Positions 15,001 to 21,000 of a stretch of DNA of 64,000 nt are shown piece by piece. Made by a program: the position numbers. The stretch is from the NCBI RefSeq assembly GCF_003790525.1, contig NZ_CP033636.1, one strand, 5' to 3'. Source of the stretch: Escherichia coli (GTDB taxonomy: Bacteria; Pseudomonadota; Gammaproteobacteria; Enterobacterales; Enterobacteriaceae). Within the stretch, counting starts at the first letter, position 1. Each line of letters starts with the position of its first letter.

Positions 15001-18000
15001 TTTTATGATGCTGGGCGTACCTTTTTACCTTCTTTATAAAATTGCCCGGGACATTTTTGGGACCGCCGGTGCTGGTGAGCCTGCACAATTGCCTCAGGGC
15101 AAGCAAAGACGCTCAGGAGGCGCTGGTTCGGGTTCGATCTGGCAAGGACACCATCTACAGGGGAGCAGCCATTTGAACCCCCTCGGAGGTGATTGTAATG
15201 GTGAAAATAGCATAGCTGGTGGTTGTGATGGTGGCGGTGGAGGAGGAGGAGGAGGAGGTGGTGGTGGTGACTGATAGCCTGCAATTTTAACTATCAGGAT
15301 GAAACCCATGTCCAGCAACCGGAAAAAGAATTCATATCAACCGAAAAGCCCTGCCTTAAAGTGAAGCGTATTAAACGTGAAGGATGCTGAATTAGAGGGT
15401 ATCGGTTTTATACTGAAGCGTAACTGGAAGAAGGATCTGAAATTAACTATTACGGAAAAGTAACTTTCTGACTCACCACGTACGCCCCTCGGTTATGCCA
15501 TACAGTTTGATACGAAAACAGATCAGTAAGTAGATTGCTATACGCCGGAGAGAAGTCTATTTTTCATACACCGAACCTGTTTGGCCTGCAATGGAAGCAG
15601 GTATAATAATCACATACAAAGGAGGGCATTATGAATAAATTTTTATACGTGCTTTTGGCCTGGATTGTTGTGCTTTTTATCGCCAACAAACTGCTCGCAA
15701 GACGTAAGCCCAAGACGGTTAAAATCCTGGTACAGCGCAACGGGAAAGCCGCAGAGGTTGATGCTGTAGTGGTTCAGGGTTCAAAGAGAGCTAACAACAG
15801 TTCTGTTGCGGACAGCGACGCGGTAGATAGTTATTTTGAAATGAATCCTTACTCCCGCGAAAACCAGTCGAATGGTTGGGCTATGCTGGCCAGAGACGAT
15901 GACCAGCTTAAATAATCAGTTGAGTGTGATGTGTAAAGCAGCTTAAAACTCTAAATGGACGAACAGGGGAGGTGACAAAGATGACAACCAATACAACAAC
16001 GACCACCTACCGCTCAGAAGAAATCGTGCCGTTCAGACGGCCCAAAGGGGATCTGGATAGTCGGTATATGCCTCAGGTGTATGCAATGGTGCGGAACTGG
16101 GCAAGTAACCCTGCTCAATATGGTGAGGGTGTACTGGCCTCCTACCGCCAACCGGCAGTAAACCTTGCCTACCAGGTAAAAGGAACTCGTGTTGTTTTAA
16201 TTCTGGTACCAGTAGAGTGCGAGCCACCTGGAGTGATAATGACGGAAACAGTCCTGTGGCCGTCACTATCACTTGTAGAAGTCTTGCAGACCTTGCAGGA
16301 GGCCTGGCAAAATATTCCGGCGTTAAACCCCTGACGACTTCTGTCAATATCACCGGCTAGTGATTTACCTCTCTGCTGGTGGTCAGCCCGCCTAAGTTCA
16401 AATTATCTCTTTCTAAATTAGCCCGGATAAAAATCGGTCCCTCTAAAATAGCCTGCCCTGAGTAGGCTACGTCATACAAAGCGTTGGCCAGTCACCAGCT
16501 GGCTGGTGGCCATAATGCTCCACAGGATAAACCGTATCAGAACTACGCAAAGAAAAAGCCCCAACAATTTACCGATGGGGCCTTTTGCAGACATTTTACA
16601 GCCTTACCAATGATAGAGCGCTAAGGCTTCTGCTTAGTGAACAGACTTGCCCACAGATAATGGATAAAGTTGAGCAGAATGTATGTTACTCGTTGCTCGA
16701 ATTTCATCGGGGCTTTGTACTTTGTCGTTATGTTGTGAATATGAGTAAGGTCCGTATAGAGCCCTAGCGACTTCCTTGTTGACTTCAACACCGAACAGAT
16801 GTGCTGAACAGACTCCGGTGTGAACAACCGTAGCCCTCGTCGTTGTTTGACTTTATGGATAAAATCGTCCATCCCCATACATAACCATTCCGGCTTGATG
16901 CCATCAAACTTACAACGTCCGTTTATGATGACGACATTGATACATTCCAGTTCTCTAGCCTTAAGAGCAGACTGAATAGCCCTGATGTGCCCCTGGTTTT
17001 GCTTAAACGGGTTCTGCAACTTGAGGGTTCGGGACTGAGTCCATTTCCGCCAGTGGCTTTCCTCCAGAGTACCGTAGAGCTTGCCTACGTAGTTTTTCTG
17101 CTCTATGACGTATATACCATGTGGGGCTACGAGAATGTGATCAACCTGAGTAGTGCTATGAGCCGACAACTGAAAGGTGAGATCACTAAGTAGCCCCTGA
17201 GCTTCTTCAGGAAGCCCAGATTCAATTGCCTTTGCAGTCCGCCGTTCCGCTATGGCAGAGGTCATAAAACCCAACAGACACAGCAACACGACGAAAATAA
17301 GGATAATGAAAGCTACCCCCGTAATGCTCCACAGCAGATTGAAAGCATCCATGTTACCTCACAGAGGGGTAGCTGGTGGCATTAACAGATTCTACCAAGC
17401 GGGTAGTGGTACCGGTAAGGCTCTCAATATTTGAAGACAGGCTCATCAGCATGCCGAGTGCAGAACGGAGATTACGATGAGGCTCATTGTAGTTTTTGAA
17501 CGTGTCAGTGGAGTACATTTTTGAAAGACGTGTACGGATCTCTACTGACGTAAGATCTCCATCCACCAGGCCGTACTTAACTGCCTGAGGTGTTGGCCAT
17601 ACACGGCCTGAATAGAGAGAAACAGCATCGGCATCATGACGCGAGAGAAGCTTTTTACCCCGTCCAAGTTCAACATCAGTTATAAATTTTTCATGCATCG
17701 TGTTCAGGATCTCCTTCTGCATGAACTCCCTCGTTGAATCGGACAATGGGTGGAAGGGGTCAAGAGCATCTTTGAACTCACCGGCCGTAAGGGGCTCATT
17801 CTTGACGCCTACTGTGCTCATGATCTCTGACAGATTCCAGTGGTCCATACGCACACCGATAGAACCGATCAGGGCATTACTGTCGGCATAAATTGCATCA
17901 GCGGGCGATACCGCGTAATAGCATGCGGATGCGCATATGCCTTTCACACTAACGATGATTGGTTTATATGAGTCTGCGATATCAGAGAAAAAACGACCGG

Positions 18001-21000
18001 TACCGCTGGAGAGTACTTCGAGGGAGTTTTGCTTCGACCGTGCTTCATCGCCACGTTCTGTGCTCCCGGTTTTGTTACTCTTGTCAGCGGCTACAGATGA
18101 AAGAGAGCAACCGGCATCTGATACGCGTTCAATCTGTGGCTGGTGGTTTTTAAGCGCGTTTATCTGGCGGTAAATAATGATGGCGTCAGAGGGACCACCA
18201 CCACCTGACTCTGCCTCGATAATAACTGCTTTGGCATGGGGATTATTGTAAGCTTTGGCAAGAGCTGTTGCGATCACTGTTCCATCGCCCGTTTCCGAGC
18301 CGGTACCCATCTCGCCAGAAATCCGTATTACAGCTATATGGTCTTTCTTCCCTTCAGCGTCCTGCCATTGTTCGTAAAGATTGTAGAAAGAAAACCCTAC
18401 AGCGGTCATGGCAATTAGCGACATAGCAACTTTTGCCGTGGTATGAATGCGAAACATCTTATAAAAACGGTCAGCGTTATCATTGAGCGATTCTTTGATA
18501 TTTGTAGGGGACTTCCTTTTTTTACTGCTTAACATCTGACCACCTTTACATGAGTTTTTGAAAGTTAGACCACAAGCGATTCAATGCAATTCCCAGTATC
18601 AATAAAGCGACTGGTGGGAAAAGTTGAGCGATATTGTTAAATAGTGACATATTCGGCATGACCAGGTAGACCATCGTTAAAGCACTGATCACCCAAAATG
18701 CTCGAAACCAAATACGATAAAACTGAACTGTAACCTTACCAAATACGTACCTCTTCAATTTCCACTGGTACATTCCATCTGCTAGCATGGCAAATAGATA
18801 GGGCAGAAAAACGATTAGCCACCCCAGGATTAAGTTCCACCGGAAAATGGACTGATAAAGTAAGAGGGGTATGTTTTTGGCCATAGTGTAATTAATAGAG
18901 GTAAATTTTTCAGCAACAATGTTAATACCTCTGGCTGGTTTTTTGGTGTCAGGGATCAGAATAGTATTCAGATAGTCAATTAACTTATAGTCATGTACCA
19001 ACCAATTTAAAGTCGCTTCACTATTTGCAATAACAGACTTCCAACGGTCATTTGATATGATGGACCGGCTTGCATTAACCTCCTGAGTAATCTGATATTT
19101 GAGCTCCTCAGTATTCTGGAAAGCCAGGCTGTAACCAAAATAAATGACCATGCCAAAAAAAAGCATTGTTCTGAGCACTGCTGCTCTGCTTGTATTATCC
19201 GCAGCCATTGCTTTCCCTCCATTCACGAAAAAGAGCTAGCCTCTGATCGTGATTGCAATAGTTGTTACGCCACATCGTCGGGATACCCAGGAGCCAGTGG
19301 TACTGTTTAGGTATGATTTGGTCGATGAGGCTTAACTCCGCCAGTTCTTTATGCTCTGCGCTTTTCCACTCGATCTGTCCCACATCAGGAACAAATACAG
19401 CGGTCCTTACTTTTGCGGCCTGGCGGGAAAATTCTATAAAGTTGATGCCCCACGGCGTCCAGTATCTGTACTGCTCGTTTAGGCCGATGTTAAACACCGG
19501 CAGAGAAAGAGTTGAGTCGGCAAAAGCCGAAATCACATTTTTGCAGACTCTTGGACTATCTATTTTTTCCTGTTCGGTTTTGAGATGAGTCAGCAGTGCA
19601 CGGTCAATAATGCTGTTAAAGGTGTTTGTATAAAGGCCATTAGGGTCAGGAAGCCGATCTATGGCAGTAATGATTTTAAATTTTAACCGAGAAAGAAAGG
19701 GAGAGTCCTCAATAGTAACTATATGACTATGTGTTGTTTCTGGATGAATCTGGGGTTTGATGCGCTGTACTTGTTTAAAAGAGACACTACCTGGCAAATT
19801 AATGAATGCGCCCACCGTGCGTGTCAAATCGACGAAATAAGGCAAAAGATAACAACCAAGCATACGGGCATTCTTCTTTACAAGATCACACCGTTCGTCA
19901 TTGTTATCGAAAGAAATACGGAAACTAACGAATTTACGTTCAGGACCTTCGCTGGTGGTCAGCGATTGAATCCATTCATGGCATGAACCTTGTGGTACCG
20001 ACCAGTAGCTGGTTTCACGGTCCCCAAAGGGATCAGTCGTGATCAACTCTCCCTTTAAAAGGAAAAGCTCAGACAGGGTATTTGCCATGGAGAATAGGGA
20101 ATCGATATCGTTGCTCTGACAAAATTTTCCCAAATGATGAAACGCGTTTTTTTCTATCTTAGTTAGCCGATCTCGAACTTCCTGAGAATCTGCGTACTTT
20201 AAACCCAAAGACTGAAAGCGCCTTTTTACGAGCGAGCGACATTTGCTGACTTTTAGTGCAGAGCTTAAAATTTGCTGGCGCGTCAGGACAATTTTTTCAT
20301 CCATCAATGAAACTTCCTTAGAAATTTATTAAGATTTTTGATATCGAGATTTTGACGCAAAGTAACTTTTCCGGCCTTCTTGAAAAGCATTTCCGACAGA
20401 GTTGTGTTTGGCTTCATTTGTTTCTCAGCAACAGCAATAGGGATTTGGCCTACAACCTTCCTGCCATCTTGAAGCCTGGCAACTATGTGAAACATAGGGA
20501 CCTGACCCAAGAGATCCTTTGGAATACTCTCTTCTAAAGTTGTCTGCTTTCTTTCTGAGATTGAACCTGAGAAGTTATTATGCGGCAAAGATGTTTCTGA
20601 ACCGGTCGTATAAGTGACCATATTTGTGCTTATCGCACTCTTACCAAAGTTCTCTACAACAAGCGTCTGAGTAGGAGTATCGTTGACTCGCAAGCTTATA
20701 TAATTGTTGCAGAGCCCCGTAATTCGATTGGCAGTTTCAACACTTGCCGCAGCAATAAAGTCGGAGATGGTTTGGGTGCAAATAAACAGTGCAATTTTCG
20801 CTGCACGACCCTGCGCCAGAAGGTTAATCATAGGGTTGTTAATGGCTGAGTGTGCCTCATCAACAAAAATACTTATCCTGGAATTAGCTGACATATCACC
20901 ATCCTGAGCGTTGTAGCGACTACCGGCACAGGAGGTCAGATCTGACATTATTAATTGAGAAATAGCAGCTGCTGTATCGGGGTTTGAAAGGCCATCAAGC

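What the first reader, a model, noticed from the sequence alone, without database searches (positions are those of the whole stretch)
16549..20307. Relaxase operon continues into an unknown 370-aa protein, a TraJ-like membrane protein, an S49 peptidase and a membrane-anchored NERD nuclease
**What the sequence shows.**
- Four more minus-strand genes follow traG: a 370-aa protein of unknown family, a four-helix membrane protein, an SppA-type S49 peptidase and a NERD-domain protein.
- They are tightly packed, with overlaps of 4 and 32 nt and gaps of 10 and 1 nt.
- The S49 peptidase has an N-terminal anchor and an unusual insertion of about 60 aa.
- The NERD protein has an N-terminal TM helix and an intact D...ExK motif (VDHILV...VIEQK).
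- The first convincing terminator after traI is at 16549-16588, immediately after the NERD gene.

**Established knowledge.** NERD is a PD-(D/E)xK nuclease-related domain that is largely uncharacterised. S49 peptidases process membrane or secreted proteins.

**Inference.**
- A membrane protease and a membrane-tethered nuclease co-transcribed with the relaxase and coupling protein suggest an uncharacterised accessory function at the transfer pore.
- Possibilities include processing of a Mpf/Dtr component, entry exclusion, degradation of competing incoming DNA, or a defence / anti-defence role.
- I cannot tell which, or whether the module is conserved.
Basis: partly seen in the sequence, partly recalled or inferred. 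Interest (0 to 1): 0.6.

Follow-up and report, generated by a model that had tools for sequence, protein, structure and literature searches.

The report
Known IncHI transfer operon accessory genes
The four genes are real and form the tail of the DNA-transfer operon of IncHI2 resistance plasmids, but they are already annotated in about a thousand sequenced plasmids and described in plasmid R27, and only the roles of three of them (an orphan protein, a membrane protease and a membrane nuclease) remain unknown.

Summary
The window is IncHI2 (R478-like) backbone. Four minus-strand genes follow the coupling-protein gene:
- an orphan 369/370-aa protein;
- TraJ (DUF4400/DtrJ-like, four hydrophobic helices);
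- an S49 Ser/Lys peptidase;
- a membrane-anchored NERD nuclease.

They are tightly coupled and end at a hairpin plus U-run terminator.

They are orthologues of R27 R0118, traJ (R0117), R0116 and R0115. Published tables label all four as part of the "H operon", and all are derepressed together with traH-traI-traG.

The eight-gene order is invariant in five divergent IncHI-like lineages, with amino-acid identity down to 26-51%. Catalytic residues are conserved.

New here:
- The S49 gene follows DtrJ in much more distant marine MOBH plasmids, so the protease is an old member of this operon type.
- The orphan protein and NERD occur only in the IncHI-like clade. NERD has decayed in Photorhabdus.

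The orphan protein has no family or fold match. The NERD model resembles defence and repair PD-(D/E)xK nucleases.

Function is untested. Most likely these are accessory, non-essential factors: envelope proteolysis at the coupling-protein/TraJ complex, and a guard nuclease expressed with the pilus.

Already known; modest interest.

The parts
26278..26763 (-). mobI/traH-like relaxosome accessory gene. First gene of the operon (context).
   Evidence: - Pfam MobI 3.5e-22.
- PGAP annotates it as 'conjugative transfer protein MobI(A/C)' in the identical plasmid.
- The R27 counterpart R0122 is traH.
25544..26281 (-). 245-aa protein of unknown family, the R27 R0121 position (context).
   Evidence: - ORF found, with no family above cut-off.
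- Homologous proteins occupy the same slot in all MOBH1 loci examined.
22388..25534 (-). MOBH relaxase TraI (context).
   Evidence: - Pfam TraI_2 1e-32.
- PGAP annotates it as 'MobH family relaxase'.
20304..22388 (-). Type IV coupling protein TraG/TraD (context).
   Evidence: - Pfam TrwB_AAD_bind and TraG-D_C.
- PGAP annotates it as traD.
19195..20304 (-). Orphan 369-aa soluble protein (R27 R0118 orthologue), translationally coupled between the coupling protein and TraJ.
   Evidence: - TGATG junction.
- No hit in Pfam, NCBIfam, PADLOC or PHROGs.
- Only 14 clusters in 5.8e9 proteins, and 19 hits in 1.84e9 representatives.
- No hydrophobic segment with KD 1.6 or higher.
18546..19208 (-). TraJ (DUF4400/DtrJ-like) four-helix inner-membrane partner of the coupling protein.
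   Evidence: - Pfam DUF4400 1.2e-12.
- Four hydrophobic segments.
- 82% identical to the IncHI1 orthologue.
- traJ is essential in Rts1, and is reported essential in R27 and SXT.
17354..18535 (-). Membrane-anchored S49 (SppA-type) Ser/Lys peptidase, with a predicted periplasmic catalytic domain and a 56-57-aa clade-specific insertion.
   Evidence: - Pfam Peptidase_S49 2.9e-28.
- Hits to PDB SppA structures 3rst, 4kwb and 3bez.
- Ser203 aligns with E. coli S409 and Lys255 with E. coli K209. Both are conserved in 12 plasmid homologues.
- 9 K/R lie before the anchor.
16621..17352 (-). Membrane-anchored NERD (PD-(D/E)xK) nuclease-like protein, with the domain predicted on the cytoplasmic side.
   Evidence: - Pfam NERD 1.2e-21.
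- D71, E84 and K86 invariant.
- TM helix 12-30 followed by ERRTAK.
16549..16588 (-). Intrinsic-terminator-like hairpin plus U-run that ends the operon.
   Evidence: - Sequence and fold.
- The R27 neighbour R0114 is not co-regulated with R0115-R0122.

Best explanation
**What it is (shown).**
- Coordinates 16549-20307 are the distal half of the IncHI 'H operon', the DNA-transfer (Dtr) operon. The full order is mobI/traH, 245-aa gene, traI, traG, p370, traJ, S49, NERD, terminator.
- This copy is on an IncHI2 R478-like plasmid.
- The four genes are orthologues of R27 R0118, traJ (R0117), R0116 and R0115.

**TraJ.** It is the established membrane partner of the coupling protein and is required for DNA transfer.

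**The other three genes (inferred).** They are conserved accessory genes, probably dispensable for transfer in standard laboratory matings.
1. **S49 peptidase.**
   - It is an active Ser203/Lys255 peptidase with an N-in anchor and a periplasmic catalytic domain.
   - It is an ancestral member of this operon type, sitting immediately after DtrJ even in distant marine MOBH plasmids.
   - Most likely it performs proteolytic housekeeping at the periplasmic face of the coupling-protein/TraJ/Mpf assembly.
     - That could mean removing leader peptides or turning over mis-assembled or spent envelope components.
   - Host SppA/SohB would provide a redundant activity.
2. **p370.**
   - It is a soluble cytoplasmic protein of unknown fold.
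   - It fills a slot between the coupling protein and DtrJ that is always occupied in MOBH1 operons.
   - Most likely it acts as a lineage-specific adaptor of the coupling-protein/TraJ/relaxosome complex.
3. **NERD protein.**
   - It was added only in the IncHI-like clade.
   - It is a PD-(D/E)xK nuclease tethered to the cytoplasmic face of the inner membrane and made only when transfer genes are on.
   - Most likely it acts on nucleic acid at the envelope while the cell is piliated, that is on foreign DNA or RNA entering the cell, rather than taking part in plasmid export.
For: **Identity and annotation**
- 979 plasmid records match; 977 of them are at least 99% identical. Typing is IncHI2A/MOBH/MPF_F, and PGAP gives the same names.

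**Operon**
- Coupled junctions.
- Terminator.
- R27 R0115-R0122 are labelled H operon. In drR27 versus R27 at 25 C they rise 5.6, 4.7, 7.3, 8.6, 9.2, 11.0 and 7.7-fold for R0115 to R0121. R0114 is not induced.

**Conservation**
- The same order occurs in IncHI1, a Klebsiella IncHI3-like plasmid and two metagenomic/MAG lineages.
- Identities to the window: p370 27-66%, TraJ 46-82%, S49 43-73%, NERD 26-62%.
- Between IncHI2 and IncHI1, pN is 0.10-0.24 against pS 0.74-0.84 for all seven genes.

**S49**
- The catalytic dyad is conserved.
- S49 directly follows DtrJ in Vibrio L004 and L025, Motilimonas L027, and metagenomic L028 and L030, at about 30% identity.
- Precedent for redundancy: the R27 dsbC phenotype appears only in dsbC-null hosts.

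**NERD**
- Fold and motifs.
- Absent from the marine loci and reduced to a remnant with a stop codon in Photorhabdus L023.

**TraJ**
- The Rts1 traJ deletion gives transfer below 1e-4 with normal mobilisation of another plasmid.
- The same paper states that R27 and SXT traJ are essential.

**Natural disruption**
- An IS5 element interrupts S49 in NZ_CP119735.1.
Against: - No functional experiment on S49, NERD or p370 could be read. The R27 Tra1 mutagenesis paper (PMC134963) is not held.
  - Non-essentiality therefore rests on three things: my recollection of its abstract (9 of 14 Tra1 ORFs essential, four of them upstream of oriT), NERD decay in Photorhabdus, and one IS-interrupted S49.
- These genes are as conserved as the relaxase (dN 0.19-0.29 against 0.24 for traI). 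That argues they matter in nature.
- Topologies are predicted only from hydropathy and charge. The S49 anchor is weakly hydrophobic (KD 1.39).
- In wild-type R27, R0115-R0118 are not temperature-regulated, whereas R0121 and R0122 are. An internal promoter or a separate transcript is therefore possible.
- Nothing identifies the substrates of the protease or the nuclease.
Confidence: 0.55

Rival explanations
1. The NERD protein is a defence or guard nuclease coupled to the transfer operon. It would sit at the inner face of the membrane and destroy nucleic acid that enters a piliated cell. Candidate targets are genomes of H-pilus-specific phages or incoming competitor plasmid DNA. This would offset the vulnerability created by making pili.
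For: - The NERD domain gives partial matches to the N-terminal domains of the defence proteins PglW, MkoA and MADS6.
- The nearest folds include Can2, McrC and Shedu.
- A 2026 preprint reports that ZwsA cleaves ssRNA-phage genomes, probably through its NERD domain.
- Expression follows tra-gene derepression.
- A NERD gene is independently embedded between traW and traU of a MOBF/MPF_F plasmid of Photobacterium.
- The gene is dispensable in some lineages, which is typical of defence genes.
Against: - The PADLOC and NCBIfam hits cover only the NERD domain and lie far below the family cut-offs. No partner genes of those systems are present.
- ZwsA is a large multidomain protein without a membrane anchor, so the analogy is loose.
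- No phage or plasmid-interference data exist for R0115.
Confidence: 0.2
2. S49, and possibly p370, are core components of the MOBH1 DNA-transfer machinery. They would be needed for maturation or turnover of the coupling protein, TraJ or an Mpf protein, with a phenotype under natural conditions (low temperature, other hosts, surfaces).
For: - S49 follows DtrJ in every IncHI-like locus and in five distant marine MOBH loci.
- The catalytic dyad is invariant.
- Its divergence rate is comparable to that of traI.
- p370 is translationally coupled between traG and traJ.
Against: - IncC, a related MOBH1 element, has no S49 after its DUF4400 gene. Its S49 lies elsewhere, next to a DsbA gene.
- From memory, SXT and Rts1 also lack S49 at that position.
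- The Rts1 list of 32 genes needed for conjugation contains S26-type peptidases but no S49.
- From memory, only four genes upstream of the R27 oriT were essential.
- S49 is interrupted by an IS in a natural IncHI2 plasmid.
Confidence: 0.2
3. S49 and NERD form a two-gene unit, such as a protease-controlled toxic nuclease or an addiction/abortive module, that merely hitch-hikes at the end of the operon.
For: - The two genes are 1 nt apart.
- Both are membrane-anchored.
- They are always adjacent in IncHI-like plasmids.
Against: - The predicted catalytic domains lie on opposite sides of the inner membrane.
- S49 occurs after DtrJ without NERD in five marine loci.
- NERD is lost while S49 is kept in Photorhabdus.
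- No PADLOC model matches the pair.
Confidence: 0.05

Closest known systems
R27 (IncHI1) H operon, genes R0118, traJ (R0117), R0116 ('peptidase') and R0115
   Same: - Same gene order, same lengths (367, 220, 393 and 242 aa) and same junction style.
- 62-82% amino-acid identity.
- Co-regulated with traH-traI-traG.
   Different: - This is the IncHI2 version.
- Nothing differs in architecture.
- The functions of R0118, R0116 and R0115 are also unassigned in R27.
SppA/SohB signal peptide peptidases (MEROPS S49; E. coli SppA 3BEZ/3BF0, B. subtilis SppA 3RST)
   Same: - S49 fold signature.
- Ser nucleophile and Lys general base at the positions of E. coli S409 and K209.
- N-terminal membrane anchor.
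   Different: - Single-domain 36K type.
- Scores lie below the NCBIfam SppA/SohB equivalog cut-offs (121 against 155; 55 against 259).
- The nucleophile sits in a CASAC motif with two flanking cysteines, instead of AASGG.
- It carries a 56-57-aa low-complexity insertion.
- It is encoded in a conjugative Dtr operon.
NERD domain proteins (Pfam PF08378; pXO1-01 type) and the NERD RNA endonuclease ZwsA
   Same: - PD-(D/E)xK core with D...E.K and the QNPF.QN..H motif.
- Frequent plasmid location, for example Bacillus pXO1-like plasmids.
- The nuclease role of a NERD domain is shown for ZwsA.
   Different: - A small single-domain protein with an N-terminal TM helix and a conserved about 100-aa helical C-terminal part.
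- Embedded in a tra operon.
- Substrate (DNA or RNA) unknown.
TraJ/DtrJ (DUF4400) of SXT/R391, IncC and Rts1
   Same: - A polytopic membrane protein encoded one gene downstream of the MOBH coupling protein.
- Essential for DNA transfer.
   Different: - In IncC, the genes after DUF4400 are small hypotheticals followed by traL, not S49/NERD. From memory, Rts1 and SXT likewise lack S49/NERD there.
- The IncC protein matches the IncHI TraJ profile only weakly (E 3e-8).
MOBH plasmids of marine Gammaproteobacteria (Vibrio gigantis p1, Motilimonas eburnea contig, metagenomic contigs)
   Same: - Order MobI, about 240-270-aa gene, TraI_2, coupling protein, about 190-233-aa gene, DtrJ, S49.
   Different: - No NERD gene.
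- The gene between the coupling protein and DtrJ is shorter and not detectably homologous to p370 (best hhalign probability 6.8%).
- The S49 insertion is absent or shorter (0-38 aa).

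Membership tests
Peptidase family S49 (SppA type) | Profile match above the curated threshold. | tested here: met
   Pfam PF01343, 99.2 bits against a cut-off of 24.9.
Peptidase family S49 (SppA type) | Ser nucleophile and Lys general base at the catalytic positions. | tested here: met
   - Ser203 aligns with E. coli SppA S409, and Lys255 with K209.
- Both are conserved in all 12 plasmid homologues aligned.
Peptidase family S49 (SppA type) | Orthology to SppA or SohB (NCBIfam equivalog cut-offs). | tested here: not met
   - TIGR00706: 121.2 bits against 155.45.
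- SohB NF008745: 54.9 bits against 259.
- It is an S49 family member but not an SppA or SohB orthologue.
Peptidase family S49 (SppA type) | Membrane anchor with the catalytic domain outside the cytoplasm; proteolytic activity. | tested here: inconclusive
   - 9 K/R in residues 1-36, then a segment 36-54 with KD 1.39, which is below the usual 1.6.
- Activity is not testable here.
NERD / PD-(D/E)xK nuclease superfamily | Profile match and the D...(D/E)xK motif. | tested here: met
   - Pfam PF08378, 77.8 bits against 22.1.
- D71, E84 and K86 invariant in 18 orthologues.
NERD / PD-(D/E)xK nuclease superfamily | Restriction-endonuclease-like fold. | tested here: met
   - AF2 model pLDDT 87.
NERD / PD-(D/E)xK nuclease superfamily | Nuclease activity and substrate. 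| not testable with these tools
   Needs purified protein.
TraJ / DtrJ-like (DUF4400) | Profile match, polytopic membrane protein, encoded just downstream of a MOBH coupling protein. | tested here: met
   - Pfam PF14348, 48.2 bits against 27.
- Four hydrophobic segments.
- Position conserved.
TraJ / DtrJ-like (DUF4400) | Required for transfer and interacts with the coupling protein. | not testable with these tools
   - Essentiality is reported for Rts1, R27 and SXT.
- The TraG-TraJ interaction is from my memory of Gunton et al. 2007.
IncHI H (Dtr) operon | Gene order traH, R0121, traI, traG, R0118, traJ, R0116, R0115 on an IncHI backbone. | tested here: met
   - Typing IncHI2A/MOBH/MPF_F.
- Synteny with IncHI1.
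IncHI H (Dtr) operon | Single transcription unit under TrhR/TrhY-HtdA control. | not tested
   - Shown only for the R27 orthologues, in published arrays.
- For this plasmid only the coupled junctions and the terminator are seen.
Known anti-phage defence systems (BREX type 2 PglW, Mokosh MkoA, MADS) | Full-length match to the system protein and presence of partner genes. | tested here: not met
   - Only the about 80-145-aa NERD domain matches.
- Scores: 24 and 21 bits in PADLOC; in NCBIfam 41 bits against a cut-off of 460 (MADS6) and 20 bits against 990 (PglW).
- The neighbouring genes are tra genes.

The most novel reading that the evidence does not exclude
Two linked readings that the evidence does not exclude:
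- The IncHI NERD protein is a transfer-operon-coupled guard nuclease. Tethered under the inner membrane, it would cut nucleic acid entering through the H pilus or mating pore. Targets could be pilus-specific ssRNA or ssDNA phage genomes, or competitor plasmid strands. It would protect cells exactly when they are piliated.
- The S49 peptidase is an integral periplasmic component of the MOBH1 coupling-protein/DtrJ translocon, not a generic signal peptide peptidase.
Probability: 0.15. Interest if true: 0.7.

Novelty: already known. Interest (0 to 1): 0.3.

Why it matters
- **Clinical relevance.** IncHI1 and IncHI2 plasmids are major carriers of multidrug, mcr-1 and tet(X4) resistance.
- **The gap.** Their DNA-transfer operon contains three strongly conserved genes with no assigned role, two of them with intact catalytic sites.
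- **If S49 acts on the coupling-protein/TraJ complex.** It would be the first protease assigned to the DNA-transfer side, rather than the pilus side, of a conjugation system, and a possible inhibitor target.
- **If NERD is a guard nuclease.** It would show that plasmids offset the phage vulnerability created by their own pili.
- **As things stand.** The finding mainly re-describes annotated genes.
  - The useful additions are the phylogenetic split (S49 old, p370 and NERD specific to the IncHI-like clade) and the predicted opposite topologies.
  - Together these narrow the hypotheses.

Tried and rejected
**Papers and libraries not available**
- The R27 papers could not be read: Lawley 2002 (Tra1), Lawley 2003 (Tra2) and the R27 genome paper.
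  - The mutational status of R0115, R0116 and R0118 therefore rests on my memory of the 2002 abstract, plus ('14 ORFs').
- The AFDB50 fold library was unavailable.

**Searches with no result**
- p370 had no hit in Pfam, NCBIfam, PADLOC or PHROGs.
- A PDB sequence search with the NERD profile gave only chance uL23 hits.
- Rfam at gathering threshold found nothing in 14-28 kb.
- Literature searches for an S49 or NERD role in conjugation found nothing specific.

**Homology tests that stayed non-significant**
- p370 against the shorter proteins in the same slot of other MOBH operons:
  - Vibrio 208 aa: probability 0.6%.
  - IncC 194 aa: probability 0.3%, although with a suggestive D..GD..WSV..G..W string.
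  - Profile against profile: probability 6.8%, E 0.005, over the C-terminal WTPW...IIP...GIP region.
- I treat these as inconclusive.

**Other limits**
- The TraJ-anchored scan of genome contigs returned only 12 loci, mostly IncHI, so it did not give the broad MOBH survey hoped for.
  - The S49-anchored protein search plus contig look-ups did.
- dN/dS could not be calculated because dS is saturated between IncHI1 and IncHI2.

**Hypotheses rejected**
- Entry exclusion, because a dedicated eex gene exists in Tra2.
- A protease-activates-nuclease pair, because of the opposite predicted topologies and the different phylogenetic ranges.

Full report
**1. What the window is**

A megablast of 16400-20400 finds 979 plasmid records. 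Of these, 977 are at least 99% identical and 956 cover at least 80% of the query. Hosts are Escherichia, Salmonella, Enterobacter, Klebsiella and others. An identical record is typed IncHI2A, MOBH, MPF_F. PGAP annotates the stretch as follows:
- nuclease-related domain-containing protein
- S49 family peptidase
- DUF4400 domain-containing protein
- hypothetical protein
- traD (coupling protein)
- mobH relaxase
- hypothetical protein
- mobI

So this is the Tra1 backbone of R478-like IncHI2 plasmids.

**2. The observation**

- All four ORFs are present on the minus strand.
- Pfam supports NERD (1.2e-21), Peptidase_S49 (2.9e-28) and DUF4400 (1.2e-12). It finds nothing for the 370-aa protein.
- The junctions are as tight as stated:

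| Junction | Sequence feature | Spacing |
|---|---|---|
| traG / p370 | TGATG | 1-nt overlap with the ATG start; 4 nt only with the TTG start |
| p370 / traJ | GGAGGG before the ATG | 14-nt overlap; 32 nt only with an upstream GTG |
| traJ / S49 | AGGTGG | 10-nt gap |
| S49 / NERD | stop codon, one base, ATG | 1-nt gap |

- For traJ, all orthologues begin 'MA', which supports the ATG start.
- Downstream of NERD the minus strand carries GGCCCCA...UGGGGCC followed by UUUUUCUUU.
  - The consensus scanner missed it because of its long loop.
  - No other convincing terminator lies inside the operon.

**3. The proteins**

*TraJ.* It has four hydrophobic segments.

*S49.*
- It matches solved SppA structures (3rst, 4kwb, 3bez).
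- I aligned it with E. coli SppA taken from the K-12 genome.
  - Ser203, in the motif CASAC, falls on the nucleophile S409.
  - Lys255, in GEFKDALDPF, falls on the general base K209, in GTYKSAVEPF.
- Both residues are conserved in 12 plasmid-borne homologues down to 26-30% identity.
- Residues 1-36 carry nine K/R, followed by a moderately hydrophobic segment (KD 1.39). By the positive-inside rule this gives an N-in anchor and a periplasmic catalytic domain, as in SppA.
- The 56-57-aa insertion (residues 132-188, Ser/Lys/Glu-rich) is real.
  - It is restricted to IncHI-like sequences (49-56 aa) and one Motilimonas homologue (38 aa).
  - It is absent elsewhere.
- The protein falls below the SppA and SohB equivalog cut-offs. 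It is an S49 family member but not an orthologue of the host enzymes.

*NERD.*
- It has one strongly hydrophobic helix (12-30, KD 3.1) with no charge before it and ERRTAK after it. The nuclease domain is therefore predicted to be cytoplasmic.
- D71, E84 and K86, the QNPF.QN..H motif and a C-terminal TDL.H motif are invariant in 18 orthologues.

*p370.*
- It has no hydrophobic segment, so it is predicted to be soluble and cytoplasmic.
- It belongs to a very small family.
  - There are 14 clusters in 5.8 billion proteins.
  - There are 19 profile hits in 1.84 billion representatives, of which five are full-length 50% clusters.
- It has many invariant residues, for example EDSPFLS, LPDP, FN.IID, WTPW..NF and IIP..Y.W.LG.

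**4. Co-transcription and prior knowledge**

The R27 (IncHI1) orthologues are R0118, traJ (R0117), R0116 and R0115. I matched them by order and by length (367, 220, 393 and 242 aa).

A published R27 transcriptome paper assigns R0115 to R0122 to the H operon and lists R0116 as 'peptidase'. Its Table S4 compares the derepressed plasmid (drR27) with R27 at 25 C:

| Gene | Fold change, drR27 / R27 |
|---|---|
| R0115 | 5.6 |
| R0116 | 4.7 |
| R0117 | 7.3 |
| R0118 | 8.6 |
| R0119 | 9.2 |
| R0120 | 11.0 |
| R0121 | 7.7 |
| R0114 (adjacent) | not induced |

This supports one regulated unit that ends after R0115, which matches the terminator here.

One caveat concerns wild-type R27.
- R0121 and R0122 are 8-12-fold higher at 25 C than at 37 C.
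- R0115-R0120 change less than 1.6-fold.
- R0115-R0118 signals (700-1500) exceed those of traI and traG (300-460).
- An internal promoter or differential mRNA stability is therefore possible.

On essentiality:
- TraJ is essential in Rts1. Transfer falls below 1e-4 while mobilisation of another plasmid is normal. The same paper says it is essential in R27 and SXT.
- From my memory of the abstract of Lawley et al. 2002 (not readable here), 9 of 14 Tra1 ORFs were essential, and only four of those lay upstream of oriT (traH, traI, traG, traJ).
- If that is right, R0118, R0116 and R0115 are not required in laboratory matings.
- One search confirms only the figure of 14 ORFs.

**5. Is the module conserved?**

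Yes. The order MobI, about 240-aa gene, TraI_2, coupling protein, p370, DtrJ, S49, NERD, then convergent genes, is found in:
- IncHI1 (L002);
- a Klebsiella IncHI3-like plasmid (L003, L024);
- two further lineages recovered through the most divergent p370 homologues (L009, L013).

Identities to the window:

| Protein | Identity range to the window |
|---|---|
| p370 | 27-66% |
| TraJ | 46-82% |
| S49 | 43-73% |
| NERD | 26-62% |
| traI | 35-68% |
| traG | 47-83% |

Between IncHI2 and IncHI1, synonymous sites are saturated (pS 0.74-0.84) while pN is 0.10-0.24 for all seven genes. The accessory genes are therefore under purifying selection comparable to that on the relaxase.

**6. Different ages of the parts (new here)**

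*S49 is old.*
- S49 homologues at about 30% identity lie immediately after DtrJ in operons of the form MobI, X, TraI_2, coupling protein, Y (190-233 aa), DtrJ, S49.
- These operons occur in Vibrio (L004, L025), Motilimonas (L027) and two metagenomic contigs (L028, L030).
- In L028 and L030 the S49 gene is followed, after one small uncharacterised ORF, by traL-traE-traK-traB.

*p370 and NERD are restricted to the IncHI-like clade.*
- None of those marine loci has NERD or p370.
- The Y proteins of the marine loci are homologous to one another. They resemble the C-terminal part of p370 only weakly (hhalign probability 6.8%).

*IncC differs.*
- IncC keeps mobH, traD, a 194-aa gene and DUF4400, but follows them with small hypothetical genes and traL.
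- Its S49 homologue (26% identity) lies elsewhere, beside a DsbA gene.

*NERD and S49 can be lost.*
- NERD has decayed to a 13-codon remnant with a stop in Photorhabdus heterorhabditis (L023). It is C-terminally truncated in P. tasmaniensis (P0024).
- An IS5 element interrupts S49 in one IncHI2 plasmid.

In short, S49 is an old member of this Dtr operon type. p370 and NERD are additions of the IncHI-like clade, and NERD is dispensable in some hosts.

**7. Most likely mechanism**

*Shown:* gene identities, operon structure, conservation and intact catalytic motifs.

*Inferred:*
- **S49** is an active periplasm-facing protease.
  - Its persistent position right after the coupling protein/DtrJ pair suggests that it services that membrane complex or the adjoining Mpf assembly.
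  - That could mean leader-peptide clearance, or turnover of spent or mis-assembled components.
  - Host SppA/SohB could mask a laboratory phenotype, as reported for R27 dsbC.
- **p370** is probably a cytoplasmic adaptor for the coupling-protein/TraJ/relaxosome complex. It is translated by coupling between traG and traJ.
- **NERD** is a membrane-tethered cytoplasmic nuclease made only with the transfer genes. Because it is a late, losable addition, it is more likely to act on foreign nucleic acid at the envelope than on the plasmid's own transfer.
  - Leads for a guard role:
    - partial NERD-domain matches to PglW, MkoA and MADS6;
    - defence-nuclease fold neighbours;
    - a preprint showing that the NERD-domain protein ZwsA cleaves ssRNA-phage genomes;
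    - an independent NERD gene inside a MOBF/MPF_F tra operon in Photobacterium.
  - These are leads, not tests.

**8. Rejected ideas**

- Entry exclusion is unlikely because IncHI plasmids carry a dedicated eex gene in Tra2.
- A protease-activates-nuclease pair is unlikely. The predicted domains lie on opposite sides of the membrane, and the two genes have different phylogenetic ranges.

**9. Verdict**

- The feature is an already annotated and previously described part of IncHI plasmids, and its function remains unassigned.
- Novelty: already known.
- Interest is modest at 0.3. It rests on three conserved, uncharacterised genes, two of them with intact catalytic sites, in the Dtr operon of a clinically important plasmid family, and on clear, cheap experiments that could assign them roles.

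Noticed in passing
window 27022-27175: A 44-bp unit is repeated 3.5 times in the intergenic region between mobI/traH and the divergent trhR-like gene. Each unit contains the inverted repeat GGGTCACTTTT...AAAAGTGACCC. This is probably the oriT or iteron-like binding region.
   Followed up: no
window 15217-15269 (ORF 14972-15274, + strand): A (TGG)n trinucleotide run of 17.7 copies gives a C-terminal poly-Gly tail in a 100-aa ORF with an N-terminal hydrophobic helix. On the opposite strand it would encode poly-Pro. It could be a slippage-prone tract.
   Followed up: no
L008 8728-9549 (Photobacterium damselae pdp2, MOBF/MPF_F): A NERD-domain gene lies inside an F-type tra operon between traW and traU. 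This is an independent association of NERD with conjugation operons.
   Followed up: partly
L023 8874-8912 (Photorhabdus heterorhabditis): Only a 13-codon remnant of the NERD gene (HGIYVI*EKNYVG, with a stop) remains after an intact S49 gene. In P. tasmaniensis the NERD protein is C-terminally truncated (216 aa).
   Followed up: yes
window 17354-18535 (S49 residues 201-205): - The nucleophile Ser203 is flanked by two cysteines (CASAC). This is conserved in all DtrJ-linked S49 homologues.
- E. coli SppA has AASGG at this position and IncC has GASGG.
- In a periplasmic domain the two cysteines could form a disulfide. These plasmids also encode Dsb-type proteins.
   Followed up: no
R27 orthologues R0115-R0122 (published tables): In wild-type R27, R0121 and R0122 are 8-12-fold higher at 25 C than at 37 C. 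R0115-R0120 are almost unchanged, and R0115-R0118 signals exceed those of traI and traG. This hints at an internal promoter or differential mRNA stability within the H operon.
   Followed up: partly
L004 6664-7290, L026 17490-18074, L027 5703-6275, L028 5739-6314, L030 5625-6326: - Every MOBH1 operon examined has a poorly conserved ORF between the coupling protein and DtrJ: 190-233 aa in the marine plasmids, 194 aa in IncC and 362-370 aa in IncHI-like plasmids.
- The marine ones are homologous to one another.
- Similarity to the C-terminal part of p370 is weak (hhalign E 0.005, probability 6.8%).
   Followed up: partly
NZ_CP119735.1 and NZ_CP091559.1 (IncHI2 plasmids): In natural copies of the module, an IS5-family element interrupts the S49 gene in NZ_CP119735.1, and an ISVsa5 element is inserted within the 4-kb region in NZ_CP091559.1.
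   Followed up: no
P0057 (509 aa, a single 1.9-kb Logan contig): This predicted protein fuses DUF4400 and Peptidase_S49 and is 100% identical to the window S49. Most likely an indel in the 10-nt traJ/S49 spacer or an assembly error caused it.
   Followed up: no
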